This document shows, piece after piece, positions 428-47,945 of a stretch of 50,561 nucleotides of DNA. This DNA is from Sanchytrium tribonematis (lineage: Eukaryota). Where the stretch lies: NCBI GenBank assembly GCA_018985235.1, contig JADGIG010000014.1, positions 1 to 50,561 on the forward strand, in the 5' to 3' direction. Position 1 is the first letter of the stretch; every line of letters begins with the position of its first letter. Position numbers and translations under genes: made by a program. Under the pieces are notes generated by a model, which worked only from the letters and a program-made list of their open reading frames with translations, made no database searches and was not told the DNA's origin.

Positions 428-1868
428 ATGCAAGTAGCAGCAGAATTTTTAGTTGATCCAGAAAATCTTAACATTTACAATGACAATGTTGTAGTGAATT
501 GTGTAGGAACAGGATGCGGTGCCACAAGTAAAAAGGAATTGTCCTACTTTTTTAAAACTACAAACTTTGGCCAGGACTTTGGTAATTTAGAAAAAGTACA
601 GGAGATTAAACATCTAGAAACTCAGAGTTTGATTTTGAATGAGACTGTGTACAAAATTCCAATTAAAGAGACAGAGCCAAACAGATTTCAATGGTTGCTT
701 ACAGGATTAAGATTGATTAATCCAGGTGAAGAAAAAATAGTTTACCTTGCTATTGTGACGATTATTGAGTTTTCTGATGCAATTGATAAAGTCCGAATTT
801 ATTGGGATCAAGCTTCATTATTGAAGCAGATTGGCTTTTTACATCATATTCAAGCGAAACCTAATACCTTTCAAACAGCTCCAAATTTTCAAACTCCGAT
901 CTTGGGGTCTTCACAAGCTGAGAAACTCATCGAAAATAAGGGGTTTAATACCTTTATCGAGAGTATTGTGGATGCTCAAGGAAAAGGCCAAAATTACAAA
1001 CAGCCGACTTCAATCGGCACCTGTTTAGACGACTCAGACTTGCAGCCTATTTTTGAGACTGGGAAAGCGGCCTCCCATAAATCCAGTATTGGTGGCAATG
1101 AAATGAGGTCTGCCCTGAAGGAATCTGAAGTATCCGAGAACAGATCAATAAGACAACTAAAAGAATCTCCATATAAACAAAAGGATTACATGAAAGCTTA
1201 CTTTGAAGGCACGGATAAGACAGACTGGCTTCCAAAAACCAAAATGATGGCTGAACCCGAAAAGTCCAAAGTTTTTGACGATGAACCAGTACCAGCGTTT
1301 TCCCATAAGCAAATCAATCCAAATAAGAATGCGTCTCATTTTTCCTTGACTGAAAATGAATATGAGAGCTCTCACAATCAAGCAACACTCAACAAAGCTA
1401 ATTCGGGTAGATCTCAAATATTTGATCAAGCGGATGAATTTAAACCAAGTACAAGAGTTTTGAATCCAGGTTGTACCGGGGGTAAGTCACAGATTCAATT
1501 CGGACTGGATGATGGCAGGCCAGGCAAACATGTTAATCCGGAAAAAAATCAATCTCATTTTTCTATAAGTGGTGACTTCTCTGATAAGTCTGCTTCCTTC
1601 AGAGAGCTTGGTTTAGCTGGAATAAAGTCATCCAAGGGTAATGAGTCTCATTTTGCCATATCTGATGCTGGAAGAACTGACCAGCCTGCTCCATCTCATC
1701 ATGGTCGTCGCTTGGTATATTTTATTCATTTAGTACAAGTCAAATCAATCCAGCTTCAGTCTCGGAGATGTCGATCCACTTGCGAAAGATTTCGAGAAAT
1801 TAAAAGTAAGACCCTCTTCGAAAGTTACGAATGTACCAGGAGGGCATTCATCGCTTAGACTTGGCTAA
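428..1868 (+). CDS. NTF2-like domain protein with repetitive low-complexity tail and RPSxxV..PGG motifs; join(428..1714,1734..1868), 473 aa
   Basis: RIYWDQASLLKQIG motif of fungal NTF2-like proteins; repeats KNASHFSL/KNQSHFSI/GNESHFAI; removing the 19-nt intron adds SNQSSFSL and RPSSKVTNVPGGHSSLRLG*. Confidence 0.7.
1715..1733 (+). other. 19-nt spliceosomal intron (gtatattttattcatttag), phase 0
   Basis: GT..AG; splicing gives a C-terminus that repeats the protein's own internal motifs and ends in TAATAAA. Confidence 0.85.
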
Positions 1869-7542: not shown

Positions 7543-8632
7543 TCAATACAAAAAGAATGTCCAGAGACCAGTAAGTAGCGCGTAAATACTCATAAAGTAT
7601 ACTTTTCTTCTCTTTCCACCTCTAGCAACATTCGGATCTTGATTTGCAAACATTATTGGCCGCAAGGCTCTGAGCTAAATAAATTTTGATTACTGTAAAA
7701 AAAGCTAAAGCTACAGATATGTATCCTCTCAAAGTCCATCCCAATATACCTTTGAATCCCAAAAGTGTTATAAAGCCATTGATTACAGCACCAACAAACA
7801 TGTACCCGATAAGAGCAGCCAGATCAAGCCATGATATGTAAGAGCCAACATTATTTAAATAAAGAAATAAAGATAGAACCAATAATTGTAATATATATAC
7901 GAATATGGTGAAAGAAGCGGTAATTCCTAATATGTCTGGATGAAAGGTTGACTTGCTTTTTGAACCATCTGCGATTGCTTTTGAGCCATCTAGACCAGTT
8001 TGTAAACCTACAAGCAATATATATGTTATAAAAGTCATCAAAGGAATATAAAGATCAAATTCACTACCAACTCTATTTCCATTTGGAATTTTGATTTGCT
8101 TGAAGGGAAATAAAATATTGGCTAGCCTGTAGACTACATACTGATGATTAACTCTGAAGTAAACTCTCAAAACATCAATATATCTTGAAGAATTTTTAAA
8201 ATATTGATTTGAAGCGTTCATAGCCATATTGAAAGTACCCAGACCCGCAGCTAAAGTATTACCATTAAAAGGAGATTGTCCAGAATCCTGATTATATTGA
8301 TTTGGATAGGAACTGGGCTGAGGGGCGTAATTTTGTGGATATTGCTGTTGTTGCATATTTGGTGATGCATTTGGATTTGCTTGATAATTGTTGTATTGTG
8401 GCTGATTCGATTCAGGTATAGGCATATTTGGCGGGTAACTAGTATCCGGTTGATAATTATATTGCTGAGGTGGTTGTTGCTGTAAATTTGGGGAATTTTG
8501 ATAGCTAGGAGGATATTGTGCAGGTGGCGGAGATTGGCGAGGCTGCTGCTTTTGAGGTCTTGCCTGTCCAGCATTTGGCCGCTGCTGAGTCTGTGCGTAA
8601 GGCTGTTGGTAATAATTTTGTTCGTTCGACAT
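7543..8632 (-). CDS. YIF1: YIF1-family ER-Golgi membrane protein; join(8632..7694,7674..7543), 356 aa
   Basis: YFRVNHQYV..ILFPF, DLYIPLMTFITYIL, FHPDILG, LDLAALIGY; splicing gives AFFT|LRALR and a final TM helix. Confidence 0.88.
7675..7693 (-). other. 19-nt spliceosomal intron (gtaatcaaaatttatttag), phase 0
   Basis: Removal restores the YIF1 FFxLRxL motif and last transmembrane helix. Confidence 0.85.
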
Positions 8633-9358: not shown

Positions 9359-12300
9359 TTACTGACCTGTTCCTTTTTCCTTGACACTATCAGGATTAAC
9401 ATTGACTCTTTGCTGACTTTCAGTAATATAACTAATGTCGTCCCACTAAATAAATAAAAAAGTACAGGGTGGCGATATAGACCTTGCTTTAATCTCTTTT
9501 GGTCTAAATAATGAGCAGTAAAACCAATTGTTCTTCCTAAAACGAATAAACCATTCAAAGTACCAATTTTAATATATTCTTCTGCTTCTTCCTTTGAAAA
9601 AGCACCACTATGTCTTAGTAAATCAACAAATAAAACACCAATTGCACCATCCACATTTAAAATTAAATTGTCTTTCTTTTGGGTTGTGATTTCCTCAACC
9701 TTTAATGCGTAATCTAAAATAGGAGTGGCTGGAAAATGAGATTTTGCGTAATTTTTGACCAATTCTACTCTCATGTCTGGATTAGTTTTGCTCTTAATTT
9801 TATGTCCGATTCCCAAAATGAGCTTATTTTCTTTTCTCATTTCATCCACAAATTGTCTCGGAGTTTTGTTGCTATCGTATGCTTGGCTAAAAAGTAATGC
9901 AGCACCGTCTAAAGCACCACCAAATCTCTCTCCAATGGTCAACATTCCACTCACAACACTAGATATCAAATCTTTTCCCGCTCTAGCAGTCACAATGGTG
10001 TTATGGGCACCACTGACGGCTGGTCCGTGGTCCGCAGTTAGCATCAAAACCATTTCGATGAAGTGACAAGCATATTCTGGTAATCTTCTCTTAAACCACA
10101 GTAAGCTTACGACTCCTCCAACTCCCAAATTTTGATTAAACACTTGACTTATAGGCATTCCGGCGTATAAAAGTTCCTCTCCTCTATCATCGGTAATGGT
10201 GCTGATAAAATTTGCAGGCTTACGAATGAGTCCCAATTGTTGAGCCCAAGCGTAATCAATCGGAATCTTGGGCACTTCTGGCTCCTTCATAACATGAATG
10301 GTTCCGTTTTCAACAAGTTTGTTGTAAACCTCACTCAATAAATCGGGTAATTCTTCAAAAGTATTTGGAACGGAAATCCCACTTTCTTTCATTTTTTGAT
10401 TTTTATAATTAGCAGTTTCTTCCTTATTATTTGCATGAGCGCCAGCATGACCAAATTGCACATCAGTTGTCAGCAGATCAGCCACAGTACCAATACACCA
10501 ACCAACTATTGGTTTTGTAATAGTTTTAGATTTAACAGCTTCCATGACTCTGTATTCTTCTTTACCACCGACTTCACCCAGAAGAACAATCAGTTTGACA
10601 TGAGGGTCCTGCTCATACCGGAGGATGTGATCCAATAAAGTACTTCCGGGATACCTATCACCTCCGATAGCAATTCCTTCATAAACACCATTTGTGTGAA
10701 GACTGATCATATTGTTCAATTCATTACTCATACCTCCACTCTTGCTCACATAAGCAACACTACCAGGACGATAGAGCTTACTGCTTACAATATTATCCAT
10801 CATACCACCAGTATTTCCAATTTTGAAACATCCTGGTTTTATGCCTCCAACGGTTGCAGGCCCGATAATTAAAACATTTTTAGCTTTTGCCACATGTAGC
10901 AAGTGTCTCGTTCTTCTTTCAGGTACACCTTCAGCGATAATACAAATGGTTTTGATCTGATTGAAGTTCATAATATCCATTGTCGAAGAAAAGACACTTC
11001 TGCAGCTGGTAAAATTAATGATTGAATTAACCTCTGGGTGTGCCTCCAAGGCCTTTAACAAAGAATCATAAACTGGGATCATAATGTCTTGAGTACCCCA
11101 GTAATACTTCATATTTGAATCACCACCAAAGGGATAAATCATAGCAGCCACACTTGGGGTTTGTCGTTTACACATGTAATCAAAATCCAACATACCTTGA
11201 ACAGCTTTTGGTTGCATACCCCAAATAAAGCATCTGGTGGAATTAGTGAATGTAGGCGAAAAAGAAGCGGAAGGAGGCGGTGTTGTGACTCGCTCGATAG
11301 AAGAGTTTGTCGGACCTCTTGGGGTAGAGGTTGGTTTGGCCTTTGCCTGTTCAGTCCATTCTTCTTTCACATCTCCTTTTAATGCCATAGGTACTATGCT
11401 CGTTACATGGGTTTCGGGACCGTAAACATGCATATCTAAATTTAATTCGCTTGCGACTCTTTTGATATTTTGTAGTCCTTCTTGATAATTTGGTCCTGCA
11501 CGTCTTACAAAAATTCTGGTTTTATGTTGTTGTAACTGAATTTGGAATTCTTGCAAAGCTTTAATAATACCCTTGAAGGTGCTGGCGACATTTGTGAAAT
11601 TTGCGATACCACCACCAATCAAAAGAATTTTTCCATCTTTATGTTCATACTTTGTCATGAGCTGTAAAATAGTTTTAGCGTATAAATAAGTTTGTTCAGT
11701 AGATGGAGCACCAGAGTATTCTCCGTAATTTGCTAACTCATTAGCAAATCCATAATTGGCAATAGCATCTGCATATGCAACTGATGCACCTCCACCAGCA
11801 ACCATAGTCCAAACTTGCCCATGTGGGTTCAAAATTGTTAATTTTAGAGAAGCGCCGGTTTTAGCGTCTAGTTCTTGAATAAAAGCTTCTTCTTTACTCA
11901 ATACTCGTCCAAAAGGAGCAGGGTACTCAATTGAAGCAGATAAAGCTTGCTGAATTTTGTCACCCGTCTCGAACTCTGCGGTTTGGTCAAGTTTTGCTGC
12001 CAAATCCATCATAGAAATTGTATAAGGCTTGACGTTTCCACCGTTAGTGTCTAAAATGGCTTTGAGTTGCGGATTATTACTAATTTCTGATTGCTCTAGC
12101 AATACTAAAGGATTAATTTCCAAATAAGTGAAATGCAAATCAACATAAACTGCATAAAGACGGGAAATGAATTCAGTAAGAACCACCTTGTGTGCTGAAG
12201 GGACATTGGCAAGTAGTTTCGAAATATCTGTTGCCTTGAGAGTTTCCAATGCAAAAACATCTACTTTAATTGCTTTTTCTTCAACATCCCCGATGTCAAC

Positions 12301-17963: not shown

Positions 17964-19461
17964 TTACGCTAAAAATTTGGTGGTGCTGTCGTTGCTGTCT
18001 GTATCACTTGACTCCTCATGAAAATTTGCCACATCTCTACGACCTCTTTCCAAATCGACAAAATGGTATAAAATTGGGATAGCAATAAGAAGCATTACTA
18101 TGAGAGCAAAGAACGAATTTCTGAAATCTCCACTTAAATCTCTTATCAATGCAGTCAAAAGGGGACCAATCCAAGCAGATCCCTTATCTGTAATTTCGTA
18201 CAAGCTGAAAAATTCAGCTTCTTTGCCTTTTGGAATTAATTCGGATAATATCGCTCTAGAGAGAGCTTGCCATGCACCTTTATAAATAAAAATTACCAAG
18301 AGTAAAGCCAAAAATTATACAAACTGGATAAATTTCCCATACTTGATGCAAGAAAAACGTCTTCGACCATTTTCCTAAGACAGCGTATATGGGGACTAGC
18401 AAAACTATAGATAGAACAATCAATAGAGTCTTTTTTGAGCTCCAATTCATGAACTTTTGCAGCCGTAACCAAAATACATTGCCAATACCTGCAATGAATG
18501 GAATTAAAATAGCATTAATTAATAAATGTTTGTCGGGCACACCCAATTCGCTTCGTGCAAATAAGATGGCGACAGTTGTCATAGTTTGTGCAGCATCAGC
18601 ATATAATGCAAAAGCAAGCAAAAAATAAAACGTAGTCGGAATTTTCCTACAATTTTTAACACTAATGTACAATCTTTCCCAAGAGAATGCAACATATACA
18701 TACGTTACATAAATTTTTCTTGTCAATTTTCTCACTAAGCTGAGATCCGCGGTACTACCACCAATTTTTCGCTGCATAGTTGGAGGTAAGGGCTCACCAG
18801 GATATGATTTCAAATTTACAAACGCTAAAGATCCGAATCCTAACCACCAAATTCCGGTTAAAATTAAGCTTAATTGCTTTCCATAGATTGGGCCTGTAAA
18901 CATATTAATTGTGGCAGCAATTATTAAACACAAAACACCGCCAACATAACCCCAGGCAAATCCATAGGATGAGAATTGAGAAGAGATATGATCCTCATCT
19001 AGTAAAGAAACTGGAGAACTAATTTCATCTAAGTTGGTTTCTCGGGTTTGAATTTCAGCTATGTGCTCCCTTACAATAAACGGCAGGTAAGCATTGTAAA
19101 CAACCAGACTAACACCGTATGCTACATTGGATAAAACAATAAAAACTGCGATAAATTGTATATTCCTTGATAATCCGATTAAAATACAGGACAGACCACC
19201 AATCCATGTTGTAAACACCAAAATGGCCTTCTTATTACCACCATAGTCTGCTAAACCTCCACTACTGATACAAAAAAGTGCCTGCATAAACACCGAGAAC
19301 GAGTTAATGTACATGGCAGTTGAATCATCGCTCAAAGATTCAACAATTAAAGGAAGAAAGAAAGTCATTGCCACGGTAGCATAAACTGTGTTAGCGAAGT
19401 CGTATAAATACCAGGCATAGACACTTCTCTTTGATTGAAGCGGTCCATTATGTGATTCCAT
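17964..19461 (-). CDS. Atg22/UMF1-like MFS transporter; join(19461..18297,18277..17964), 492 aa
   Basis: AWYLYDFAN, GGLADYG, YNAYLP, GYVGG, QALSRAILSELIPKGKEAEFFSLYEITDKGSAWIGP. Confidence 0.9.
18278..18296 (-). other. 19-nt spliceosomal intron (gtaatttttatttataaag), phase 1
   Basis: Joins two ORFs of the same family in frame (FGFTLG-AWQALSR); contains an in-frame stop if retained. Confidence 0.92.
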
Positions 19462-19649
19462 TAGACTTCACTGTTTGAGGGCTGATAACGGAGTTACGCA
19501 ATCTGGCAAATTTGCAAATTTGTGTAACGGTTTCACACAATTTGACGATGTAATTTATCGCTACGAGCTTCTTCAGATGTCTATTTCGAAGTTTTTAAAT
19601 GTACAATAGAGTAAAATAAAACGCTTCTAATTATTTTTGTAACACGGAA

Positions 19650-20240: not shown

Positions 20241-20256
20241 AGATAAATAAAATTTA

Positions 20257-20907
20257 TTAGGTGAACCATGACCTGAGATACCACACTAAAAGCAACAAAA
20301 GTATGGCTGCAGCTGGTGGGCCATATTTGCGATATTTTAACATCAAATTCAAATAATTTGCATCTTTCCTATATTTCAAACTGGAGTCTTTCAGCTGATC
20401 AGATAGAGTTGTCATTCCTTCCAAGTTTTCACCTCTCAAGAGCATGTCTTCTAAGTTTTTGTTCATTATTTGATGGACGTCAGTAAGCTCTTGATTCAGT
20501 TGATGGAATTGTTGTTGTTTGACATCAGCATATTCCTTTTTGAGTCGATGTATATTGGTCTCAAATGAGAGGTAGTTATATGGTCTATTTTGCTGCATCG
20601 GATCATTAATACCATACAGCTGAAAAAATTCATTCTTGACTGCAACTAGAAAATCGAAAGCAGACTGCCTGGGAAATTGCTTGTTACATATAGTCAAAAA
20701 GCAAACGCTACTTTCTATTATGTAATGGAAAAGATAATCTTTAATTTGTACACTGCATTTTTGTTCTGAAGATTGATTCAGTACTTTAAATAATTTCTTG
20801 GCTTGTTGCTTTATGGAATTAAGATCATTTTCAGTGCGGTCATCATCAATACTGGCAGCTAGCGGAAGGGCATCACCCACTCTATAAATTAAACAGCTTA
20901 GAACCAT
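20257..20907 (-). CDS. SEC22: Sec22 longin R-SNARE
   Basis: IYRVGDALPLAASIDD, RPY..F, LNQELTDVHQIMNKNLEDMLLRGENL, C-terminal TM. Confidence 0.93.
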   Translation of the reverse strand: MVLSCLIYRVGDALPLAASIDDDRTENDLNSIKQQAKKLFKVLNQSSEQKCSVQIKDYLFHYIIESSVCFLTICNKQFPRQSAFDFLVAVKNEFFQLYGINDPMQQNRPYNYLSFETNIHRLKKEYADVKQQQFHQLNQELTDVHQIMNKNLEDMLLRGENLEGMTTLSDQLKDSSLKYRKDANYLNLMLKYRKYGPPAAAILLLLLVWYLRSWFT

Positions 20908-20973
20908 TAGAAAAGTTTCAAAAATTAATTTGCAGTCTTCAAGTCTTGATACAAAAGGAGTTTTGCAGTTTTA

Positions 20974-21972
20974 ATGGATTACGAGCTTTTAGAAGAGCTA
21001 GGCTCGGGATCATTCGGGAAAGTTTTTCGTGCTACCAATAACAATTGTCACTATGCCATTAAAAGAATTAAAAAATCCGCAAATCGAAGATTTATTAAAC
21101 CAGGGACTTCTGTTCAGAATCAAGAACAGGCCATTAAACGAGAAATAGCCATTTTAAAGAAATTGAATAATGATAATTGCATTAAATTAATAGATGCTTT
21201 GGAAGATGGAGTTTACTGGTTTTTAGTTTTTAAAGAATATCAATCAGTGGATCCTGATATGGACCCATTTTTCATTTTTAATAATGTGTTGCTTGGACTC
21301 GAGTATATTCATGCCCACGATATAGTTCACTTGGATGTTAAGCCAGACAATTTGCTATATGATGGGAAACAAGTAATTCTCTGCGACTTTGGGTTGAGTG
21401 TTATGATACCAGCCGAAGTTCGACCAGGTTCAGCACAATGGACCAAAGCAGGAACTTTGGGCTACACTGCACCGGAAAATATTGGAAATGACGAATTGAC
21501 AGACTTAAGTGATCTCTTTCGGGCTAAAATGGCTGATATGTGGGGATTGGGAATGTCTATATACCATTTTGAATATAAGAGACTTCCATTCGATGAACTT
21601 AATTCTTTAGATAGAATTGAGGCATTGAAAAATGAAGACATTATTTTTAAAAACAATTCCAATCTCTCTGCGGTTGTAAAGCACCTGTTGGATCGAAATG
21701 TAAAGGATCGATATGACACGGATAAATGTAGATATCACATTACGCAGCTTAAGGATTGGCCTACATTCAAAAGCAAAGTGGAAAATATTGGTAAACTTTG
21801 TATTGTTGATGATATTGAAATAGAAGGTGCGTTTAAAAGGGTCCATTTTATGGCAACAGTAATTAAAGCCGTTACTAGATTTAAAAGAGGTTCTAGAAGT
21901 AATGCCGATATGTCTACCGAATTAAAAAAAGTGGCAATCGATCAACTCACTGATAGTAGCAACTCCCAGTAA
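20974..21972 (+). CDS. Ser/Thr kinase, CaMKK-like
   Basis: LGSGSFGKV, KREIAILKKL, HLDVKPDNLL, DFG, GTLGYTAPE; basic amphipathic tail ATVIKAVTRFKR resembles a calmodulin-binding segment. Confidence 0.75.
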   Translation: MDYELLEELGSGSFGKVFRATNNNCHYAIKRIKKSANRRFIKPGTSVQNQEQAIKREIAILKKLNNDNCIKLIDALEDGVYWFLVFKEYQSVDPDMDPFFIFNNVLLGLEYIHAHDIVHLDVKPDNLLYDGKQVILCDFGLSVMIPAEVRPGSAQWTKAGTLGYTAPENIGNDELTDLSDLFRAKMADMWGLGMSIYHFEYKRLPFDELNSLDRIEALKNEDIIFKNNSNLSAVVKHLLDRNVKDRYDTDKCRYHITQLKDWPTFKSKVENIGKLCIVDDIEIEGAFKRVHFMATVIKAVTRFKRGSRSNADMSTELKKVAIDQLTDSSNSQ

Positions 21973-22135
21973 ATTTAAATGGTGCGCAATTATCTATTTA
22001 GGAACTACAAAATCTTGTATGACCCAAACGGTCTAAACGTCGACTATCACGATTAGTTTCAGGTTTGTGACGTAAACTTTTATAAGACAAATAAAGACGC
22101 TCTCTACCAAAAGACGTTAAACGACACAATTCTTA

Positions 22136-23497
22136 ATGCGAGAATTAATAGAATTTCTTAATGAATCCAAATTACCACAACCAAAACGAAAAGTTAGCGT
22201 CAGTAAGAAACATAGGCCATTAATGCAAAAAAAGCGAATCAGTATACATGAAAATAATTCGGTCTTAAAAATGCTAAAAACTGAATATAATAATTCAAAA
22301 AAGGTAGTGAGAAGTGCCGGACAAAACACGTTGAATAGAGACAATCGAAACAGCAACGCTCTAAGTTTAACAAGCATGAGTATTTCAAATTTGAGTATGA
22401 TGAGTGACGGATCTATTGATTCATTTATTAGCGATTTAGACGAAGAGGATGAAAAACCAGTCAAGCCTTTGCGTTACAAAAATCAACCTGCACATTATAC
22501 CACCCTCATTCCCACCGAAACTGAAAAGAATGAAGTTACTTCAGAAAATATTAAAAAGACTGATTTAAATAGAGATAATGCTCAAAATGCTGCTGAAAAA
22601 AGGATCTCACCTCCTAGACCACCGAAGCCAATGAGTTCAGAGTTGGCAGAAGTTGCTGATGTGATACATCAGTCAATTGAAACAGATGAAGAAGATATTA
22701 CAGATATAAGCTCTTTAACAAGCTCAAGTGATTCTAGCCAGTCTCTTCCTGCGGCCCATAAGCCTTTGAAAATTGCAATGCCCCTCCCTCAACCATCTCC
22801 CCAACAAAGTGCTGCCCAACAAAAACCATTAAAGTCTGTTACTAAAAGAGTTCAGTTCTCAGATGTAGATGTCATTAAACGCGATACCTCTCTAGAAGAG
22901 CTTGGTACCGTCGACTTAAACGATGATTTGTTGGATATGAAAGATTGGATGACGTCAAGAAGTACACAGACGCAACAGAATACTTGTGAAGAATATACAG
23001 ATTTGTCCAAGGAAGAACTTGTATCCCAATTGACCAAATATAGAGAAGAATGTTTTGCAGCTCAGGAGTCTCTCCATCTTCTAGTTGATGAGAACGGAGA
23101 ATATGCGAAAAAATATGATATCGCTTCTCGTCAAAATGATGAATTATTTATTAAGCATGATCAAGTTATGTCACAATATACTTTACTGAAGTCAGATTAT
23201 AATACAGCCCAAAATACATTAATACAAACAAGACAGCAACTTCAGCAGGCTACAAACAAATCCACTGATTTGGAAAAATTGTCGACTCGCGCTTTGAAAA
23301 AAATCAAAGACTTGGATGGAGAAAACAAGTTTTTGTCCATGCAAGTTGAGTGGCTGAGAAACAAACTTGTCAATCTTAATGTTCAAGATGACGACGACAT
23401 GGATGACTCATCCTATTCATCAAGTACCACGATGTCTAGTTTTGAGAAGCCAGCGATTAGAAGGAAAAGACTGAAAAAAAAAGAGGCATCAGTCTGA
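22136..23497 (+). CDS. Hypothetical protein: disordered Pro/Ser-rich region plus C-terminal coiled coil
   Basis: 453-aa ORF; PPRPPKP, KRVQF (RVxF-like), heptad-rich C-terminus. Confidence 0.7.
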   Translation: MRELIEFLNESKLPQPKRKVSVSKKHRPLMQKKRISIHENNSVLKMLKTEYNNSKKVVRSAGQNTLNRDNRNSNALSLTSMSISNLSMMSDGSIDSFISDLDEEDEKPVKPLRYKNQPAHYTTLIPTETEKNEVTSENIKKTDLNRDNAQNAAEKRISPPRPPKPMSSELAEVADVIHQSIETDEEDITDISSLTSSSDSSQSLPAAHKPLKIAMPLPQPSPQQSAAQQKPLKSVTKRVQFSDVDVIKRDTSLEELGTVDLNDDLLDMKDWMTSRSTQTQQNTCEEYTDLSKEELVSQLTKYREECFAAQESLHLLVDENGEYAKKYDIASRQNDELFIKHDQVMSQYTLLKSDYNTAQNTLIQTRQQLQQATNKSTDLEKLSTRALKKIKDLDGENKFLSMQVEWLRNKLVNLNVQDDDDMDDSSYSSSTTMSSFEKPAIRRKRLKKKEASV

Positions 23498-23536
23498 GGA
23501 TTCTGGCTGGGAAACAGAAATACAAACATAAATTAA

Positions 23537-23962
23537 TCATTTTTTTCTTTCCTTATTCAAAATCTTTAAATCGTCTCTGTGCTTTTTCAGTCTTTTCTCG
23601 ATTGTTTCTTTAGATTCAACTTTTGGTTGGAGATTTTCCCAATAAGCAATTCTTTCCAAAACTTGATCAATACTAACTTTCTCAGGCACATCACTTATTC
23701 CTGCTGCAATTTGATGCATTCTGCTATTTATATGTTCAAGATAAGCATTGGAATCTGAAAAAACCAAATCACAAACTTTACAAACATAACCTGCTTGTTG
23801 AGAAGTATGAATTAGCCTTTTTCCAACTGCATTTTGTAAATTCAAATTTAGTGTAGTAGAAACGCGCTCATTTTTTGGGGTGTATTTCAAGTCAGGCTTC
23901 TTTTTCTTCGCAATTGGAAGTGTATTAACATCGAATTCCCTTCGTTTCATGAACTCATACAT
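23537..23962 (-). CDS. ZMAT2: Snu23/ZMAT2 spliceosomal matrin-type zinc-finger protein (start at 23962 or 23950)
   Basis: GYVCKVCDLVFSDSNAYLEHINSRMHQ..G..EKVSIDQVLERI. Confidence 0.85.
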   Translation of the reverse strand: MYEFMKRREFDVNTLPIAKKKKPDLKYTPKNERVSTTLNLNLQNAVGKRLIHTSQQAGYVCKVCDLVFSDSNAYLEHINSRMHQIAAGISDVPEKVSIDQVLERIAYWENLQPKVESKETIEKRLKKHRDDLKILNKERKK

Positions 23963-24119
23963 TCTCGCAATCGTAATTCCGCTCTTAGCCTTATATTACG
24001 TACATTTAATGTGGGCATCAGACAAGGATTACTTGCTGCTAACTCCAACTGTATTTATGTTGTCTCTTGTGTATTCGATTGCTCAGTGGTGGGCCTTTAA
24101 CAAATTTAGACATAATTGA
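23949..24119 (+). CDS. PIGY: PIG-Y/Eri1-like GPI-GlcNAc transferase subunit, 56 aa
   Basis: Two hydrophobic helices, YLLLTP, and the terminal W...KFRHN* typical of PIG-Y. Confidence 0.75.
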   Translation: MNSYILAIVIPLLALYYVHLMWASDKDYLLLTPTVFMLSLVYSIAQWWAFNKFRHN

Positions 24120-24132
24120 ATGTATATTTACT

Positions 24133-25577
24133 TTACAAGTAATCATTTGAAAACTCTAACTCAGGAAATGAGGCATTTATATCCAGAACTTCTTCCTTTA
24201 TAGGTGAGTCGGTAGATTTTTTCCTCTTGTCCAGAATCGGCGAATCAGCAGATAATTCCTCATTAGAAGTATTTATAAGCGGTGGTATTGGTATAGCGAA
24301 GTAGTGGTTCTCGGAGTACTCCCCGTCAAATTTTTTCATAGTGACGGGTGGAAAAATTAAATCTACAAGATCACCTACATCGCCGTAGGAAGACTTAAAA
24401 TAGCTTTGTTCTAATTTCAAGGTTCCCAGGTGATCTACTACGAATATACGACTGTTAGGAATATCCACGCTTCTGTAAGATATTGCGTCCTATATTAGAT
24501 AAGTAATACAGTGTTTCTATTCCCAAATCCAGCGTAAAAAGGATTTCTAATTTTAAATACTCTCTTGATGTCTTTTAGGCAAGCCATTTTAAAAATTTCT
24601 GGACGCCTTTGTATTATTTCCCTTCGGAAAGCTGCATAAAGACGATCCGGAGATAGAAAAACGGGTCCTTCCGGTAATTTGTACGGTCCTTGCTCCACCT
24701 TCTCTAAATAATTTCTAGTGTAAGGAGCTTGGCCAATGGCTCTGGAAGTGAGATATAACATTTTGTACCCATTTTTATAAATTTTATGATATAGTCCACA
24801 AATACTAGCATGTGTCCAATCCTTTCCAACAAAAGCAAATAAGTGACCCAGAGCATCACTTTTTGTGATTGTTCCATCTATATCACTTATAACAACATTT
24901 ACGTTATGTTCCCATAAATAAATGTTGGCTGTGCACTTTTCTTCTCCATTGATGTAATAAATTAAATCATTTTTGCCTTTTTTCAATTCCAAGGCTTTCA
25001 ATTGTTCGGAAGACATCCTTAGGCTTTTAGGAGAATAACTCATCATAGAAACAGATTGAATTGGCATTAGTTCTGGAGAGCCGGAATTGGATCTTGAAAA
25101 TGTATTTGATGTGGACGGTTCTCGACTGAGTGGATTTTTCAAAGATATTCTATCCTCTTCACTTTTGTACCCTTGCTCATGACGGGTGGATCTAAAATCG
25201 TCCTCTGGTGGAGACTGATAACCTTCTGATCTTGTATCTAAATTTAAATCAATACTTCCTTCGTCAGAAGACATGGCATCTTGGTCAACCTCATCTAAAA
25301 CAAAATAACCTTCACCAACATCACCTACGCGCATCTGAGTGTCAATAATTTTTCCATTCACTTTTAAGTGTACAATTTGGTCTTGAGTTCTCAGTATAGA
25401 CAATTTTCCGAATCTCACGTGAAAAGGCGAACAACTTAAAGATCCGTCCAGGTGTTCGATAACAAGTATATCAATAGCACCGCTTAAAGTTGATGGATTT
25501 ATCTCGGAATATACATCTTTTATCCATGATACAGCACTGCTTGCATTTTTGTAAGCGTAAGAAGAGATTGATTGCAT
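24133..25577 (-). CDS. PAH1: Lipin/Pah1 phosphatidate phosphatase; join(25577..24510,24489..24133), 474 aa
   Basis: INPSTLSGAID, CSPFHVRFGK, DIDGTITKSD, LTSRAIGQA; splicing restores GFGNRNT|DAISYRSV. Confidence 0.95.
24490..24509 (-). other. 20-nt spliceosomal intron (gtattacttatctaatatag), phase 0
   Basis: Removal restores the lipin GNRxTD..SY motif; contains CTAAT with A at -6; in-frame stop if retained. Confidence 0.95.
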
Positions 25578-25729
25578 CTCCGGTTTTAACAATCAATTTA
25601 TGAATTTGTTTTTGAGCTATAAAACCTTCATTAATATTGGAAGTTGATGCAAAGTCGTGGCACTTATATATATATTATATAATAGCAGGTAGTATTATAT
25701 TTCAGTAGGAGAGAGTAAAACTTTTATTT

Positions 25730-26953
25730 ATGAATGAGCCAGAGATATCAATGTCAATTGAGGAGACAAATAAGCTTCGTGCACAGCTTGGTCTGAAGCC
25801 ACTAAAGGAGGAACAGAATCGCAAAGAAGAGCCTACCATACTTGAAAAATCTAATGATCGTATTGAAAACAATTTTTCTACTGAGGATTGGCTTTCAAAA
25901 ATGGCAAAAACATCCAAAAAAGTAGATAATAATTTTGAACTCAATGATCAGTTGGATTACAAGATCGGCCATGATTTCGAAGACTTAAAAACAGGAGAAA
26001 ATATTGTAACCTTGAAAGATTCAGATGAGATGATTTTAGAGGAACAGGGCATAAAAGATCTTGATCATATAAAAAAACAAAAAGATGTTTTTCAAAATTA
26101 TACTGGAACTAGAGACTCTGAAAAAAGTCTGTTGTATCAATATGAAAATCAAACTGGGTTCAGAATCGGTGACCCGGTGAAACGAAAACGCGAAGAACTT
26201 CTTGGAGAAACTGTTTCTACTCAAATTGAAAAGACTGAGCAGTCTGAATTTCGTCCAGTCAAGAAATTTAAAAAGGCAAATATCAGGACAATTGAAAAGG
26301 ATATTGGTGAACAAATAATGAATGAAATTGAAATTAAAAACATAAAGCCAAACATCAATCAAGTAATAGCATCAGTGAGGCCAAATATTGAATTAGATCT
26401 TAATCGACTTAAGGCAAGCAATGATATCACTGTCGAAGGAGAAGAATTTAATGAAGCTACTATTATCACATCTATCGTAAAACCTGAAGAGAAGGAAGAA
26501 AAATGTGAATTTACGGATGCAACAATGGAAGAAGCCGCCGAAGAAGAAATGGATATTGATGACGCACCAAGCGTTGACAATGATTATCTGAACAATATAC
26601 CAAACACAAAATATTTTGATTTGCCAAGTTTTTCTGTTGCACCTTTTCTGCCTCAGATAGTTAAAGTTTTTGATGAAGCACAATTTGATTCAGAAATGAA
26701 GCATATTGATGCAGAGATTGATATTTTAAAGATTAAAAGGAAAAACAGCAAGCGCAAGAAAGACATGAATCCTATTGACAAGAAAATTGATCAACTGGAG
26801 AAACAAAGAGCTTCATTGCTAATTCAGAAAATGAAACATTACAAACCAAATATTGATATCCAATATGTAGATAAAAATAGAGTTCTAACACCTAAGGAAG
26901 CTTTCAAGAAGATTAAATTCTATGGTCAAAAGGTCAAAGCTGCTAATAAATAA
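25730..26953 (+). CDS. SART1: SART1/Snu66 tri-snRNP protein (short, 407 aa)
   Basis: HIND motif SMSIEETNKLRAQLGLKPL, IGHD, VTLKDS, YKPNIDIQYVD..LTPKEAFK. Confidence 0.88.
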   Translation: MNEPEISMSIEETNKLRAQLGLKPLKEEQNRKEEPTILEKSNDRIENNFSTEDWLSKMAKTSKKVDNNFELNDQLDYKIGHDFEDLKTGENIVTLKDSDEMILEEQGIKDLDHIKKQKDVFQNYTGTRDSEKSLLYQYENQTGFRIGDPVKRKREELLGETVSTQIEKTEQSEFRPVKKFKKANIRTIEKDIGEQIMNEIEIKNIKPNINQVIASVRPNIELDLNRLKASNDITVEGEEFNEATIITSIVKPEEKEEKCEFTDATMEEAAEEEMDIDDAPSVDNDYLNNIPNTKYFDLPSFSVAPFLPQIVKVFDEAQFDSEMKHIDAEIDILKIKRKNSKRKKDMNPIDKKIDQLEKQRASLLIQKMKHYKPNIDIQYVDKNRVLTPKEAFKKIKFYGQKVKAANK

Positions 26954-26986
26954 GATTTATTCCTGCCAAGAATTCTCCGTGACACA

Positions 26987-29728
26987 ATGAATTTTTTCGG
27001 AGATGTTGATGATTTGGATCCAGAAATGCAAACTGCACTCAAATCTGATTACGCAAAAAATCTACTTCTTGGTGGAATTGTGGATGATGAGCAGCAATCA
27101 GATCACAACGGATATATGAGCGAAGATGATAAATGGCCTGAATTGCCGAAAATAAAAGTACAAATGGCCGAGGATACCCTGGATATAATGCTTAAAACTA
27201 AATACTATGCCCCACCAGATATCATTGAAACTGAAAAAGAAGAAAAAGAAGATCCCCATCACTCTTTAACGCTAGACGATTTAAAATGGAACATTCAATT
27301 AGATCAATGGGACAAAGCCATTACTTATGATAAATATTCGAAACCTCAACCAACTAATCATTATATGCTGTTATTTCCTATTCCTAATTATCACTTGATA
27401 CACAATATGCAACACCGTTCATCCGATGGCTGCGCGTTACTTTTGGATCAAAATGATCCTTATTTACATGTTGATTATTCGACACTGACACAACCGAAAA
27501 AAGTGGTAACCGTTAATGAAGCACTGTCTACTATAAAGCAAAAGTTCAATGGATTTATGTATCAATTGAATTCTGTAAGACAAACAATGCAATATCAGCT
27601 GAATCACACTGATATAGCCAAAAAACTTTATACTGCCTTTTATCCACTTCATTATACAAAATTCGACCTCAGGCATTACCATAGAGCGCCTTATGCTGCC
27701 AAAACCCATACAATGTTAACCTTTCAAGGACCTCGAAGCATACACAAAAAGAAAATTCAACTTGCAAAGGAAATACTTGCGAGAGATGGCAGAATTGTGT
27801 TGTTAGAATACAGTGAAGAATATCCTTTAATGATGCAAAATGTTGGTATGGTGACTTTATTTCAGAATTTTTATAGAAAGGAAGAAGGGTTTCAACCCCA
27901 CAAACCATACGGATCACTTATCAACCTGGAAGAAAACGAATTGAGCCCTTTATTTGGATTTGGTGATGTCGAAAAGGGTGAGATTGTCTCGTTAATCGTC
28001 AATAATCTGTTTCGAGCACCAATTGTTCAACACGCCCCTAAACAAACAGATTTCTTGTTTATACATTATAATTACAAAAACCAAGACAAGTACTATTTAA
28101 GAGAATTTCCTGATTTATTTGTGGTTGGACAGGCTCTTCCTGCAGATCAGATTCTTCCTCCGCAGAGCAGAAAACATTTGCTGATGCAGAAAAATAGAGT
28201 CAAACAAGCAGCATTTAGACTGATCAAAAAACATCCTAAAAGAGTTCTTCATATTGATAGTTTAAGACATCAACTACCTGGATATTCAGACACAAATTTA
28301 AAAGGTAAGTTACGGGATTTTATGGTTCCAGTGAAAAACAAGAAAAACAATATTTGGGCACTAAAACCTGGTATTGTTATATCTGACGATTTGGATGAAC
28401 TGTGTACACCGGAGCAAGTATGTTTACACCATGCGATGTTGGCGGGAGAGCAGAGACTTAAGGACCTCGGATTTACTTCTATCAGAGATGATGAAAATGA
28501 CCACAATATGGAACTTGAAGAAAAAGTAGCATCTTGGATTTTGTCTAGAAATTTTATTAATGCTGTACAAGGTAAAAACATGCTTCAATTGTATGGTTCT
28601 GGTGATCCCACAGGCGTTGGTTTGGGATTTTCATTCATTAAAACCGCTGCCAAAGATGTATTTTTGCGAGAAAATGAAACAATGGAAGATCGAATGAAAG
28701 AATTATCAAATAGACCAAAGAACGCTCAAAAATTCACCATTGCTGAGCAGCAAAATATTTACAATACAGAGATAATGAAAATTTTTAAGAGGCAAATGGA
28801 AGATCTTTGTAACCCAGTTGATTTTGAATTGGCTGAGGGTGAAAGCGTAACGCAGCAACAACCTCTTTCATTTGTCAAGGAAGATGAAAGCGTTAGCAAT
28901 GTAGTTCGCCAAACAAAGACTCTAGTTATTACGAGAAAAGTCAAAGTTGATGGTGCAGAGGAAATTCGTCAAGAGATTGTCAGAGACCTGCAAGTCATAA
29001 ATCAATATATTGCAATTAAGTCAAAAAACATACCAAAAGATGCCGGCGCTGCCGATGACAAAAGTGAAGTATCAAAAGTTAGAAAATGCCGTGCTTGCGG
29101 TTCAACAACTCATATTAAAACTAGTAAGTTGTGTCCAATGAATAAAAATCACGGGGAGCACTTGGAAAAGGAAAGAAATAGAAAAAGAAAGGCGTCTCAA
29201 GCAGGATCTAGAAACCCACCAGGTAATAGGCTATCAAACAAGGTCAAGTTAAATAATGTACTTGAAAAAATAGTCATGCAAATGACGAGCAATACTGAAT
29301 GCTTTGCATTTAATTACCCAGTTTCTGATGAAATAGCCCCAAATTATTCACAGGAAATAGAGACTCCTATGGATTTTGGTTCCATGTTACAAAAATGTAA
29401 AGATAAGCTATATAACTCAGCTGATGAATTTTTGCAAGACAATGCTTTGATCCGAGACAATTGTGCCAAATATAATGGACCAACAGCAGTTTTTTCCCAA
29501 CTGGCTGCAAAATTTGTGGCTATAGTTGAAAAGAAAGTGAAATCTAGCAAAAGAGTGTTGGAATTGACAGAAAACATGGCAAATTCTATCAACGACGACG
29601 CCAATACTATAGAAGATACTAATACCGAAACTCGTAAATTAGATGCAACACCTGATGGTGCTTTGTCTGACAAATCAAGTGATAGTGGCTTGGAAGATTT
29701 AGAAGCATTACTAAATCAAGATATTTAA
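26987..29728 (+). CDS. TAF1: TFIID subunit TAF1 (DUF3591, zinc knuckle, one bromodomain)
   Basis: LLEYSEEYPLMMQNVGM, NNLFRAP, GSGDPTGVGLGFSF, CRACGSTTHIKTSKLCP, APNYSQEIETPMDF..NCAKYNG. Confidence 0.95.
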   Translation: MNFFGDVDDLDPEMQTALKSDYAKNLLLGGIVDDEQQSDHNGYMSEDDKWPELPKIKVQMAEDTLDIMLKTKYYAPPDIIETEKEEKEDPHHSLTLDDLKWNIQLDQWDKAITYDKYSKPQPTNHYMLLFPIPNYHLIHNMQHRSSDGCALLLDQNDPYLHVDYSTLTQPKKVVTVNEALSTIKQKFNGFMYQLNSVRQTMQYQLNHTDIAKKLYTAFYPLHYTKFDLRHYHRAPYAAKTHTMLTFQGPRSIHKKKIQLAKEILARDGRIVLLEYSEEYPLMMQNVGMVTLFQNFYRKEEGFQPHKPYGSLINLEENELSPLFGFGDVEKGEIVSLIVNNLFRAPIVQHAPKQTDFLFIHYNYKNQDKYYLREFPDLFVVGQALPADQILPPQSRKHLLMQKNRVKQAAFRLIKKHPKRVLHIDSLRHQLPGYSDTNLKGKLRDFMVPVKNKKNNIWALKPGIVISDDLDELCTPEQVCLHHAMLAGEQRLKDLGFTSIRDDENDHNMELEEKVASWILSRNFINAVQGKNMLQLYGSGDPTGVGLGFSFIKTAAKDVFLRENETMEDRMKELSNRPKNAQKFTIAEQQNIYNTEIMKIFKRQMEDLCNPVDFELAEGESVTQQQPLSFVKEDESVSNVVRQTKTLVITRKVKVDGAEEIRQEIVRDLQVINQYIAIKSKNIPKDAGAADDKSEVSKVRKCRACGSTTHIKTSKLCPMNKNHGEHLEKERNRKRKASQAGSRNPPGNRLSNKVKLNNVLEKIVMQMTSNTECFAFNYPVSDEIAPNYSQEIETPMDFGSMLQKCKDKLYNSADEFLQDNALIRDNCAKYNGPTAVFSQLAAKFVAIVEKKVKSSKRVLELTENMANSINDDANTIEDTNTETRKLDATPDGALSDKSSDSGLEDLEALLNQDI

Positions 29729-29732
29729 TAAA

Positions 29733-33400: not shown

Positions 33401-33935
33401 ATGCCAGTTTATCATTCTCAATTCGATGGAACAAAATTTCAAAGTATTGGAGGAATGGCTTTACTTCCATTTCAATCTAAATTTAAAGGACCAGCTGCAC
33501 CTACTACGGAAGAAGATATTGTTGAGGAATCGGTCATTTCTTTTAGAATTAATTGCTTTTTTAAGCATTTCGACATTAAAAGTTCGGCTGATAGAACTTT
33601 GATTTATGGTATTCTATTTGTTTCCGAATGTTTGAGTAAATTGAAGCCAAATATGTCTCAACAAGAAGCTTACAAGACTTTGCAAAGTTTTGCTGTCAGT
33701 GGATTTGCACTTCCTGGCGATGCTGGTATTTGTAATTAATTCAGGATTCCCTTTAAATGCATTATATCCCACACCTGCTAATAGAGGTGAATACGATCAA
33801 TTAAAAGCGTATATTTTACAATTTAGACAGGAACTTGCGCAAAGATTTAGCGAGAGGGCATTCGTCAACAATCAGCCTTCCAAATGGTGGATGGCATTTC
33901 AGAAAAAGAAGTTTTTAAATAAAACTCTATCTTGA
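33401..33935 (+). CDS. ARPC3: Arp2/3 complex subunit 3; join(33401..33725,33745..33935), 171 aa
   Basis: MPVYHS, FKGPA, ADRTLIY, spliced FALPGDAGFPLNALY, PSKWWMAFQKKKFLNK. Confidence 0.96.
33726..33744 (+). other. 19-nt spliceosomal intron (gtatttgtaattaattcag), phase 1
   Basis: Removal restores the conserved PGDAGFPLN; in-frame TAA if retained. Confidence 0.96.
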
Positions 33936-46036: not shown

Positions 46037-47945
46037 TTATGACGACTTGTCAAGGTATGGAAGATATTTGCCAAATTTTAGATTAGGAGTATCAAGGTCA
46101 ATTGCTTCTAGATTTTGATTGCAGCGAGTGGTAAAGGTCTCTATCAAGTCATTTGCAACGCCGCTTGCGAATTTATCCCAGTTTTCATATACCTTTAATC
46201 TAGACGATATATTTTTGCAATTATTGAGAGCTTCAATAATTTCTTTCTTTAAATCACTTTTGGGAATACTTTTTACCGATTCTACCTTTTTTTGTAAATG
46301 ATTGTATTTCAAAGATGGAGGAGAAGCAGCTATACCAAGTACTCTATATTGCTGTTGGAATCTATGAGCCATAAAATCATCAGTATAGATGTCCAACTGA
46401 AACGGTACAGAGAGATTAATATTGCAATAAAGTAGCAATTTTGTAAAAGCTCCATAATATATTTGATGAAATTGTACAAAAAGACCTTCGAATGAGTGCA
46501 GCTCTTGGACTTCTAGAGAGACTTTTGGCAGATCAGAGATACTTCCACAAAAATATCGAATATGATCAGATTGGAAATCTTTGAGAGATTTCTTTTTCTC
46601 AAGTGTTTTGAGAAAAAATCTACTAACATACTCCATTTGAACAGAAAAAGCCAAAATATCATGCTTTTCTATCAATTCAAGATAATATCCTAAGTTTAAC
46701 CATTGAAAACAAGCAAAGTTGGACATAACATCAACCGATATTTTTAAGTATGGTGTATTATGCTTCTAAGTAAGTATTAAGTACATCACGCAGCATTTTG
46801 CTAAGTAAATCATCATATTGATCAAATGGAATTTTTTTGATGGACTCAATATATCCATTTAACATTCGTCTATATCTTCCCGAATTATGAGCAGAGCTAT
46901 GGATTAAATCCCCAAATACAGAATTAAGACCTGGTAAAAGGTTGGATAACAAATCATGAAGATGCATCGGAGGCCATGGGATTTCTGCACTACCCAATTT
47001 CTGAATTTCCTCTTTTGAGTGAGTGGCTATCGTATGACTTATTTCTCTCAACTGAAGTAGAAAAAAATCGTTTATCGGATGTCCCTGAATCTTTTTGTCT
47101 CTCATCAAAACATGGTTTCTTGTGCTAAATAAAAAGTCTAAAGGAATCTGGCTTTTCTCAATTCCATCGATATCAATGTCGTATGTATTGAATAACTTCA
47201 CCCCCACTTCAGAAAAGTAGCAGGATCCTATAGAATAAAAGAAATTTCTCCAATATAAATTAAGGCCAAACTCTGCTGGCAAAGAGTAGCTTGAATGAAT
47301 ATCATTATAAAACTTGTACATAAAATTGTAAATAGGCTCAATTCTATTATTAGGAATTAAATGAAATGGTCTGGGTGGAGAAAGTAGCATTTCTGGCAAT
47401 TCGTTTAGATTTACATCGAACGGGATTTCTTTAGATTTACATTTAGTGCTAGTGATTTTGGAAGCCCACAAGAAATGATGAGCTGAAGATGGAAAATTAT
47501 CAGGCTTGATTTTTAATTGAAATTGTGGAGCCGATTCTCCTTTCATCATCTGTAAAATATCCAGAGCTAGATTATCCAGCTTCAAATGATCGTTATAAGC
47601 ATTTCCGTGCTTACATATAATGCTGCAATCATGACTCACGATCTCCTCCTCTTCATACAAACCATATTTTCTTAATTCTTGAACAACTGCTGTAAGGTGT
47701 TGGTGCGGATAGTAGCAAGTCGTCAATGACTGACCGCAAAGAAAGTGGAGAAAAAGACAGATTCCATTATCTTGATTCAGTATAGGCGCCTCATGGTCTG
47801 CCAATGCTGTAAAATAATCCATTTTAAAATCCATCATTTCGATAGCTGCAATGCTGTCTAGCAACTTAATTGTATTTGAAATGGAAAACGTTTCGAGAGA
47901 GTCACAATACGAATTAAACTCTTCCGTACATTCTATCCAATTCAT
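46037..47945 (-). CDS. NAA35: NatC auxiliary subunit Mak10/NAA35-like; join(47945..46785,46765..46037), 629 aa
   Basis: MNWIECTEEF..LLDSIAAIEMMDFKMD, GQSL, LYEEEE, HNSGRYRR, LGYYLEL, HRF. Confidence 0.75.
46766..46784 (-). other. 19-nt spliceosomal intron (gtacttaatacttacttag), phase 0
   Basis: Joins the 395-aa and 229-aa ORFs in frame (LRD|KHNTPY...MSNF) and fits the same consensus. Confidence 0.88.

What the first reader, a model, noticed from the sequence alone, without database searches (positions are those of the whole stretch)
24490..24509. Branch point apparently fused to the 3' splice site: invariant A at -6 in all seven introns
Aligned on the 3' end, the last 9 nt are ttcAtttag, tttAtttag, tttAtttag, tttAtaaag, tctaAtatag-type ctaAtatag, ttaAttcag and cttActtag. 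All 7 fit Y-T-N-A-Y-N-N-A-G (T at -8, A at -6, pyrimidines at -9 and -5), and 6 of 7 also have A at -10. All start GTA. YTNAY is the canonical U2 branch consensus. Inference: a lariat loop of only 14-15 nt with no polypyrimidine tract, and the 3' AG chosen by fixed distance. This would leave U6 and U2 pairing sites almost adjacent and, as I recall, parallels the branch A position in Stentor tiny introns. AT richness inflates chance matches, so the sample needs enlarging.
Basis: partly seen in the sequence, partly recalled or inferred. Interest (0 to 1): 0.82.

Follow-up and report, generated by a model that had tools for sequence, protein, structure and literature searches.

The report
Tiny 19-base introns in sanchytrid fungi
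An algae-parasitising sanchytrid fungus interrupts about one gene in five with introns only 19-20 bases long, whose likely branch-point A always sits six bases from the end; this layout is known from ciliates, Yarrowia and microsporidia but was not found described for this fungal group, whose public proteins are cut short at these spots.

Summary
Confirmed. Seven GTA...AG segments of 19-20 nt break seven reading frames, and a gene model blind to the motif recovers all seven. Homologues fix the cut for lipin (the focal intron), ATP-citrate lyase and ARPC3, and support it for NAA35. T at -8 and A at -6 are invariant (0 of 200,000 shuffles; 9 for any common register). The organism groups with Amoeboradix gromovi (Sanchytriomycota). 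In six orthologous introns of relatives (19-22 nt, decoded from unspliced protein tails), 21 of 30 motif cells are forced matches and none is violated. The motif follows the 3' end, not the 5' end. Best reading: U2-type introns with the branch A likely at -6 and a 14-17-nt lariat loop. No RNA, lariat or snRNA data were available, and a ruler cannot be told from first-AG choice. The same -6 geometry is published for Stentor, Blepharisma and Yarrowia, so this is likely an independent case of a known kind. Two extras: G at +5 is missing, and all seven introns lie in the 3' part of their genes. The scan noted similar layouts on other DNA (Rozella, Neolecta), not on this genome.

The parts
24490..24509 (-). 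Focal 20-nt phase-0 GT-AG intron in the lipin/Pah1 gene; in-frame TAA if retained
   Evidence: Best canonical cut among 636 stop-free cuts scored against 30 homologues (220.4 vs 198.1 for the next); Pfam LNS2 positions 1-178 and 179-226 on the two sides; shared with 3 relatives
24494..24498 (-). Branch-like motif CTAAT at -9..-5; predicted branch A at window 24495 (-6)
   Evidence: Sequence; column statistics; predicted U2 pairing; branch use inferred
24510..25577 (-). Lipin exon 1 (356 codons)
   Evidence: Pfam Lipin_N and LNS2
24133..24489 (-). Lipin exon 2 (118 codons plus stop)
   Evidence: Pfam LNS2 179-226; matches homologue residues after the junction
1715..1733 (+). 19-nt phase-0 intron in a gene of no known family (428-1868)
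   Evidence: Motif-blind gene model; exon 2 resembles the protein's own repeats by eye; no homologue test
7675..7693 (-). 19-nt phase-0 intron in YIF1
   Evidence: Motif-blind gene model; exon 1 stops at Pfam position 196 of 245, but exon 2 alone gave no Pfam hit
9446..9465 (-). 20-nt phase-0 intron in ATP-citrate lyase
   Evidence: Only canonical cut among 412, and tied for best score; shared with 3 relatives
18278..18296 (-). 19-nt phase-1 intron in an ATG22-like transporter; acceptor AAG
   Evidence: Pfam ATG22 70-402 and 394-481 on the two sides; motif-blind gene model
33726..33744 (+). 19-nt phase-1 intron in ARPC3
   Evidence: Best canonical cut among 981 (219 vs 201.5); shared with relatives
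46766..46784 (-). 19-nt phase-0 intron in an NAA35/Mak10-like gene; a second AG lies 3 nt downstream
   Evidence: Intron-less relative P0250 aligns without a gap across the junction; the 19-nt cut scores 242 vs 232 for 22 nt, though a non-canonical cut scores 245; family
25730..26953 (+). Snu66/SART1 homologue (tri-snRNP protein), 407 aa: a major-spliceosome gene in the same window
   Evidence: Pfam HIND; PDB hits to human (800 aa) and yeast (587 aa) chains
23537..23950 (-). Snu23/ZMAT2 homologue (B-complex protein), 137 aa
   Evidence: PDB hits to human (199 aa, E 2e-10) and yeast (194 aa) chains

Best explanation
These are 19-22-nt GT-AG introns of sanchytrid fungi with a branch-like motif fixed at the 3' end, and they are likely removed by the major (U2) spliceosome using the A six bases from the end as branch point. 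Shown: the segments break conserved reading frames and removing them restores them; the consensus is GTA, an A/T-rich stretch of 6-9 nt, then A-Y-T-N-A-Y-N-N-AG; the motif keeps its distance from the 3' end while length varies (19, 20, 22). Inferred: U2's GUAGUA box pairs with -11..-5 and bulges the A at -6; the lariat loop is 14-17 nt; the acceptor is the first AG, at about the shortest usable distance, so no polypyrimidine tract is needed; with G+5 gone, 5' site pairing to U1/U6 is weak and the branch motif carries most of the information. Likely origin: deletion-biased shrinkage in a compact parasite genome down to a spliceable minimum, independent of ciliates, microsporidia and Yarrowia.
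For: Frames and boundaries. Column statistics and decoys. Relatives: in 6 introns whose length is fixed by the downstream exon, 21 of 30 motif cells are forced matches and 0 are violated; chance 2-3e-8, or about 2e-4 counting one per gene; sliding the motif by -4..+2 gives 9-18 violations. Two variants of one ARPC3 intron (P0245, P0254) differ in the 5' interior but keep the residues that cover the motif. 4-5 of 6 positions can pair with GUAGUA in every window intron (the U2 motif as stated in PMC13685798). Two spliceosome genes are in the window. Placement with A. gromovi SH-aLRT 100, with Blastocladiomycota 99.
Against: No spliced read, lariat or snRNA was seen. In the six fixed-length relatives T at -8 is only compatible, never forced, and A at -6 is forced in 3 of 6. 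Two tails (P0002, P0122) have no fixed length: if their stop codon is the acceptor they are 15 and 18 nt with the A at -5. P0246 would start GTT rather than GTA. Most predicted U2 pairs at -9 and -5 are G-U wobbles, and -7 mismatches in 5 of 7. A letter-blind test gives only P = 0.023. The relatives' introns are orthologues of three window introns, so they are not fully independent. Two window introns (gene at 428, YIF1) lack a homologue test.
Confidence: 0.82

Rival explanations
1. The introns are real but the branch is the A at -10 (position 10 of a 19-nt intron), giving a 10-nt loop as modelled for Stentor; the T-N-A at -8..-6 is then a protein-binding 3' signal.
For: A at -10 in 6 of 7 window introns and in 5 of 6 fixed-length relatives; second-best register, U2 score 20 vs 33.
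Against: The focal intron has T and P0244 has G at -10; sliding the motif to this register gives 9 violations against 0; an A four bases before the branch A is itself part of the AYTRAY/WCTRAY consensus (bioRxiv 10.1101/2022.06.08.495308; PMC2483917).
Confidence: 0.07
2. The 3' AG is set by a strict ruler from the branch (exactly 5 nt on), built into a remodelled spliceosome, rather than by taking the first AG. This is the reader's version; it refines the best explanation and does not exclude it.
For: No variation in motif-to-AG distance in 7 of 7 window and 6 of 6 fixed-length relative introns; an AAG acceptor is tolerated; the proximal AG of the tandem acceptor at 46766 fits better.
Against: The AG used is the first AG after the motif in 7 of 7, so first-AG choice plus deletion pressure explains the same data; P0002 and P0122 may have the A at -5.
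Confidence: 0.4
3. The 3' pattern is only AT-richness plus avoidance of internal AG and G, with no fixed branch.
For: Intron interiors are 91% A+T with 1 G in 107 nt; two invariant columns arise somewhere in 2.3% of shuffles.
Against: Composition-preserving shuffles give the T-N-A column 9 times in 200,000; AT-rich decoys carry the motif 2 of 36 times; relatives show 0 violations.
Confidence: 0.04
4. The segments are not spliced: they are assembly errors, pseudogene lesions or sites of recoding.
For: No RNA evidence was available; the only run laid may be the source of this DNA.
Against: The same breaks occur at the same codons in A. gromovi and in metagenome relatives at 67-84% protein identity; all have GT..AG ends; exon 2 stays conserved in frame.
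Confidence: 0.02

Closest known systems
Heterotrich ciliate tiny introns (Stentor coeruleus, Blepharisma undulans, Fabrea salina)
   Same: GTA start, A/T-rich body, conserved A at -6 (10th of 15, 11th of 16; PMC9505925 passages); the Blepharisma 15-nt motif has A or T at +5 and the same A (PMC13685798 passages); low density; F. salina is reported to have extreme 3' enrichment of introns.
   Different: 15-16 nt and mostly 3n there; 19-22 nt and never 3n in 13 of 13 here. The branch region has no strong consensus in Stentor, but a clear AYTNAY here. Different supergroup, so convergent.
Yarrowia lipolytica and other yeasts with a constrained branch-AG distance
   Same: A fungus with the branch motif 2 nt before the AG (A at -6) and no 3' polypyrimidine tract (PMC2483917 passages).
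   Different: Yarrowia introns are long (median 204 nt) with strict ACTAAC; here the whole intron is 19-22 nt and the motif is degenerate and T-rich.
Microsporidian introns (Encephalitozoon cuniculi)
   Same: Fungal relatives with very short GT-AG introns and a strict branch motif (PMC3629993 passages; PMC2483917).
   Different: 22-76 nt, about three dozen in the genome, with a GTAAGT-like 5' site; here shorter, far denser (7 in 33 genes), no G+5, housekeeping genes of many kinds, and 3' placement. Still shorter microsporidian introns in Pseudoloma are recalled, not checked.
Mikrocytos mackini 16-17-nt introns; Trichomonas type B 23-25-nt introns; Entamoeba invadens
   Same: Narrow length range with conserved sequence (PMC10245619 passages); branch site fused to the 3' motif (PMC12316389 passages); AYTRAY motif at a fixed place (10.1101/2022.06.08.495308 passages).
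   Different: Branch at -8 in Trichomonas and E. invadens; other supergroups; different lengths.

Membership tests
U2-type (major) spliceosomal intron | GT..AG termini whose removal restores the conserved reading frame | tested here: met
   7 of 7 restore a frame; best canonical cut against homologues in 4 of 4 tested
U2-type (major) spliceosomal intron | Branch motif able to pair with U2 GUAGUA around a bulged A | tested here: met
   4-5 of 6 positions pair, many as G-U; register -6 beats all shuffles; the organism's own U2 was not seen
U2-type (major) spliceosomal intron | 5' site pairing with U1/U6 (GTAAGT/GTATGT-like, G at +5) | tested here: not met
   GTA in 7 of 7, but +5 is T in 6 and A in 1; G is excluded at +5 in the 9 relative tails decoded. 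The same departure is seen in heterotrich U2 introns, so it does not exclude membership
U2-type (major) spliceosomal intron | Excision as a lariat; spliced mRNA | not testable with these tools
   No RNA run was listed
U2-type (major) spliceosomal intron | Major spliceosome present in the genome | tested here: inconclusive
   Snu66 and Snu23 homologues are in the window; no spliceosomal snRNA in this 50 kb; no whole genome held
Constrained branch-AG introns (Yarrowia, Trichomonas, Giardia type) | Branch motif at a fixed distance from the terminal AG, whatever the intron length | tested here: met
   Same register in 19-, 20- and 22-nt introns: 7 of 7 window, 6 of 6 fixed-length relatives; 2 further tails undetermined
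Constrained branch-AG introns (Yarrowia, Trichomonas, Giardia type) | No polypyrimidine tract between branch and AG | tested here: met
   Only 3 nt between A-6 and AG; the T-runs lie upstream of the motif
U12-type (minor) intron | Extended RTATCCTT 5' site and TCCTTAAC branch (consensus recalled) | tested here: not met
   The columns show neither
Sanchytriomycota (host organism) | Groups with Amoeboradix gromovi next to Blastocladiomycota; GC about 35% | tested here: met
   ATP-citrate lyase tree, SH-aLRT 100 and 99 (one gene, quick search); best named hits are A. gromovi at 73, 78 and 83%; GC 32-41% per kb against 34.6 and 36.3% published

The most novel reading that the evidence does not exclude
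Sanchytrids have a remodelled spliceosome that reads a 19-nt intron as one unit: with G+5 lost, the 5' site is defined without normal U1/U6 pairing, the U6 and U2 helices abut on a 14-nt loop, the acceptor is fixed by distance, and introns survive only in the 3' part of genes because their recognition leans on 3'-end processing. This would be a fungal system in which to test how the roughly 50-nt 5'-site-to-branch limit of the human spliceosome is bypassed.
Probability: 0.15. Interest if true: 0.78.

Novelty: new member of a known kind. Interest (0 to 1): 0.52.

Why it matters
It adds a likely independent origin of near-minimal introns, inside the Fungi and outside Microsporidia, with the same -6 geometry as heterotrich ciliates. 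That points to a shared physical floor for branch-to-acceptor spacing. The human spliceosome needs about 50 nt between 5' site and branch (PMC6692369); here it is 14-17. There is also a practical effect. The published sanchytrid proteomes were called as plain ORFs on genomic contigs (PMC8371127 methods), and the three A. gromovi proteins seen here all end in read-through intron sequence. If the window is typical (7 of 33 genes), about a fifth of sanchytrid proteins may be truncated in public sets, which bears on claims of domain or gene loss. The 3' placement runs against the usual 5' bias of intron-poor genomes and has one reported parallel, Fabrea salina.

Tried and rejected
No whole genome is held, so a genome-wide logo and an snRNA or splicing-factor survey could not be run. 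Sequencing runs: no RNA holder listed; the one DNA run matched 17001-34900 without differences but may be this DNA's source, so it is not independent. The metagenome scan with the ATP-citrate lyase alignment returned 79 loci, none sanchytrid-like; in 45 of the 79 the junction is visible and none has an intron there, but some are probably mRNA contigs. Rfam found no spliceosomal snRNA in the window (one chance-level snoRNA hit, E 0.42); short snRNA core words occur only without their context. PDB and ESM Atlas searches did not identify the gene at 46037-47945; its relative P0250 did. The motif-blind gene model made 13, 19 and 36 calls at three intron priors. The calls other than the seven were 25-118 nt; the six at the strictest prior join separate neighbouring genes across stop codons, and all were set aside as artefacts without further test. 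A search for missed 5' introns gave 11 upstream-exon candidates at 33 gene starts, none a GTA intron with the full motif. The careful tree search did not finish; the quick tree is reported. The Stentor genome paper (Slabodnick 2017) is not held. Nonsense-mediated decay as the cause of the 3' placement was considered and not adopted: three retained forms end within 20 codons of the normal length.

Full report
1. What the window is. It is a gene-dense eukaryotic contig in the standard code, GC about 35%. ATP-citrate lyase, lipin and ARPC3 have their best named matches in Amoeboradix gromovi (73, 78 and 83% identity), with unnamed ENA metagenome proteins at 67-84%. A 30-row ATP-citrate lyase tree (30 of the 120 listed hits, chosen for named spread; quick search) groups the window with A. 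gromovi and two ENA relatives at SH-aLRT 100, within a set with Blastocladiomycota at 99. The organism is therefore a sanchytrid other than that A. gromovi proteome. No whole genome is held.

2. The observation. All seven segments exist as described, five of 19 nt and two of 20 nt. All start GTA, with T at -8, A at -6 and pyrimidines at -9 and -5 in 7 of 7, and A at -10 in 6 of 7. In shuffles that keep each intron's composition, T-8 with A-6 in all seven came up 0 times in 200,000. T-N-A in any shared register came up 9 times, and a U2-pairing score as high in any register 0 times. Against this, two invariant columns of any letter arose in 4,510 shuffles, so the strength depends on the prior expectation of a branch-like T-N-A. 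Among other GT..AG 19-20-mers in the window, 16 of 528 carry the full motif.

3. Are they introns, and were they picked by the motif? A gene model with a flat 12-120-nt length prior and no branch term recovered all seven with the same ends at each of three priors. Its coding model was trained on ORFs that I delimited, so it is not fully blind to exon-1 ends. Its other calls (6, 12 and 29) were set aside as artefacts. All stop-free cuts near four junctions were scored against homologues: 30 of 56 ATP-citrate lyases, 30 of 51 lipins, 2 full-length ARPC3 and 1 NAA35 relative. The proposed intron was the best canonical cut in 4 of 4. It was tied for best overall in 3 of 4; for NAA35 a non-canonical cut scored 245 against 242. 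ATG22 is supported by Pfam continuity. YIF1 and the gene at 428 rest on the gene model and frame only; YIF1 exon 2 alone had no Pfam hit.

4. Enlarging the sample. Relatives' proteins were called as plain ORFs and so run into the intron, which leaves a readable tail. Eleven distinct tails were seen; ten were decoded by script and P0254 by eye. In six, the out-of-frame tail also spells exon 2, which fixes the length at 19, 19, 19, 20, 22 and 19 nt. Across five motif positions (R-10, Y-9, T-8, A-6, Y-5), 21 of 30 cells are forced matches and none is violated. Simulated AT-rich introns do this with probability 2-3e-8, or about 2e-4 counting one per gene; slid registers give 9-18 violations. Limits: T-8 is never forced in these six, and A-6 is forced in three. 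P0245 and P0254 fit with T-8 and A-6 forced if their stop is the TAG acceptor (20 nt). P0002 and P0122 fit at 20 and 19 nt, but would have the A at -5 if their stop is the acceptor (15 and 18 nt). P0246 is too short to decode and seems to start GTT. The 22-nt A. gromovi ARPC3 intron shows that the motif is anchored to the 3' end. One relative lacks the NAA35 intron (P0250).

5. How it likely works. Shown: GT..AG ends, frame restoration, a 3'-anchored AYTNAY motif, and three bases between its A and the AG. Inferred from established splicing chemistry: U2 GUAGUA pairs with -11..-5 (4-5 of 6 positions, mostly with G-U wobbles) and bulges A-6, which attacks G+1 to give a 14-17-nt loop. The AG used is the first one after the motif in 7 of 7, so a ruler is not separable from first-AG choice. 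The 5' site is GTA followed by T at +5 in 6 of 7. G at +5 is absent from all seven and excluded in the 9 tails decoded, which predicts weak or altered U1/U6 pairing. Snu66 (407 aa against 587 and 800) and Snu23 (137 aa against 194 and 199) homologues lie in the window and are shorter than their yeast and human counterparts; two genes do not show a reduced spliceosome.

6. Further patterns. All seven introns lie at 62-98% of the coding sequence (mean 0.79; P 0.003 under a uniform null, noticed after the fact). A check of 33 gene starts found no motif-bearing 5' intron. None of the 13 introns with known length is a multiple of three. Stop-free 3n introns are hard to see; four GTA-starting candidates of 24-30 nt inside ORFs were not tested. 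Density is 7 introns in about 46 kb of coding sequence.

7. Comparison with what is known. Stentor introns have the putative branch A at position 10 of 15 and 11 of 16, that is -6 (PMC9505925, passages). Blepharisma is similar, and Fabrea salina shows extreme 3' enrichment while other intron-poor ciliates are 5'-biased (PMC13685798, passages). Yarrowia has a branch-AG distance of 2 nt and no 3' pyrimidine tract (PMC2483917, passages). Entamoeba invadens has AYTRAY at -8 (bioRxiv 10.1101/2022.06.08.495308, passages). Trichomonas has a branch site fused to the 3' motif and 23-25-nt type B introns (PMC12316389, passages). Mikrocytos has 16-17-nt introns (PMC10245619, passages), E. cuniculi 22-76 nt (PMC3629993, passages), and myxozoans medians of 22-27 nt (PMC13644364, first third of the text). 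The human 5'-site-to-branch minimum is about 50 nt (PMC6692369, passages; PMC10158995, passages). PMC8476143 (passages) gives 1.3 introns/kb for Allomyces; no sanchytrid appears in the passages seen.

8. Is it in print? Searches: 'sanchytrid' with 'intron' gave 2 papers; 'Sanchytriomycota' with 'intron' gave 4; a four-term search listed 5 papers naming both genera with 'introns'. In PMC8371127 and PMC10459994 'intron' occurs once each, in a reference title, and 'splic' not at all. The genome paper predicted proteins with TransDecoder on contigs (section 18 read). The other listed papers were seen only as search listings; supplements and subscription journals were not examined. So I found no description of sanchytrid nuclear introns, which is not proof that none exists.

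9. Verdict. The finding is real and well supported as sequence. The branch assignment is likely but unmapped, and the ruler is undecided. The architecture is a known kind reached again, apparently independently, in a fungal phylum where it seems undescribed and where it corrupts public protein sets. Interest 0.52.

Noticed in passing
all seven introns (1715-46784): Every intron lies in the last 40% of its coding sequence (62-98%), opposite to the usual 5' bias of intron-poor genomes; P about 0.003, post hoc.
   Followed up: partly
window 45858-45877 (-): A 20-nt GTA..AG segment with a near-perfect branch motif at the same spacing lies between the NAA35-like and FG-GAP genes; a possible UTR intron, but less AT-rich (60%) than the seven.
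   Followed up: no
window 15620-15649 (+): A 30-nt, 83% A+T, stop-free 3n GTA..AG candidate with the motif inside an importin-like ORF; probably coding, untested.
   Followed up: no
window 25730-26953 (+) and 23537-23950 (-): Snu66 and Snu23 homologues flank the lipin gene; both are shorter than the yeast and human proteins.
   Followed up: partly
window 48907-50561: No long ORF; 49747-49905 (-) has a weak RT_RNaseH_2 match (E 2e-4, below the Pfam cut-off), which suggests a decayed LTR-retrotransposon remnant.
   Followed up: partly
window 23949-24119 (+): A 56-aa membrane-protein-like ORF starts back-to-back with Snu23, with essentially no space between the start codons; faint PIG-Y match (E 0.65).
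   Followed up: no
window 35919-42971 (+): A 2,350-aa intron-free ORF with a signal-peptide-like start and no Pfam hit.
   Followed up: no
whole window: Intergenic DNA totals only about 2.4 kb over the first 49 kb; several neighbouring genes touch or overlap at their ends.
   Followed up: no
proteins P0003, P0004, P0122, P0124, P0244-P0246, P0250: Unnamed ENA metagenome proteins show at least two further sanchytrid-like lineages that share these introns; P0122 and P0254 are both listed on a 17,737-nt contig, as lipin and ARPC3 are neighbours here.
   Followed up: partly
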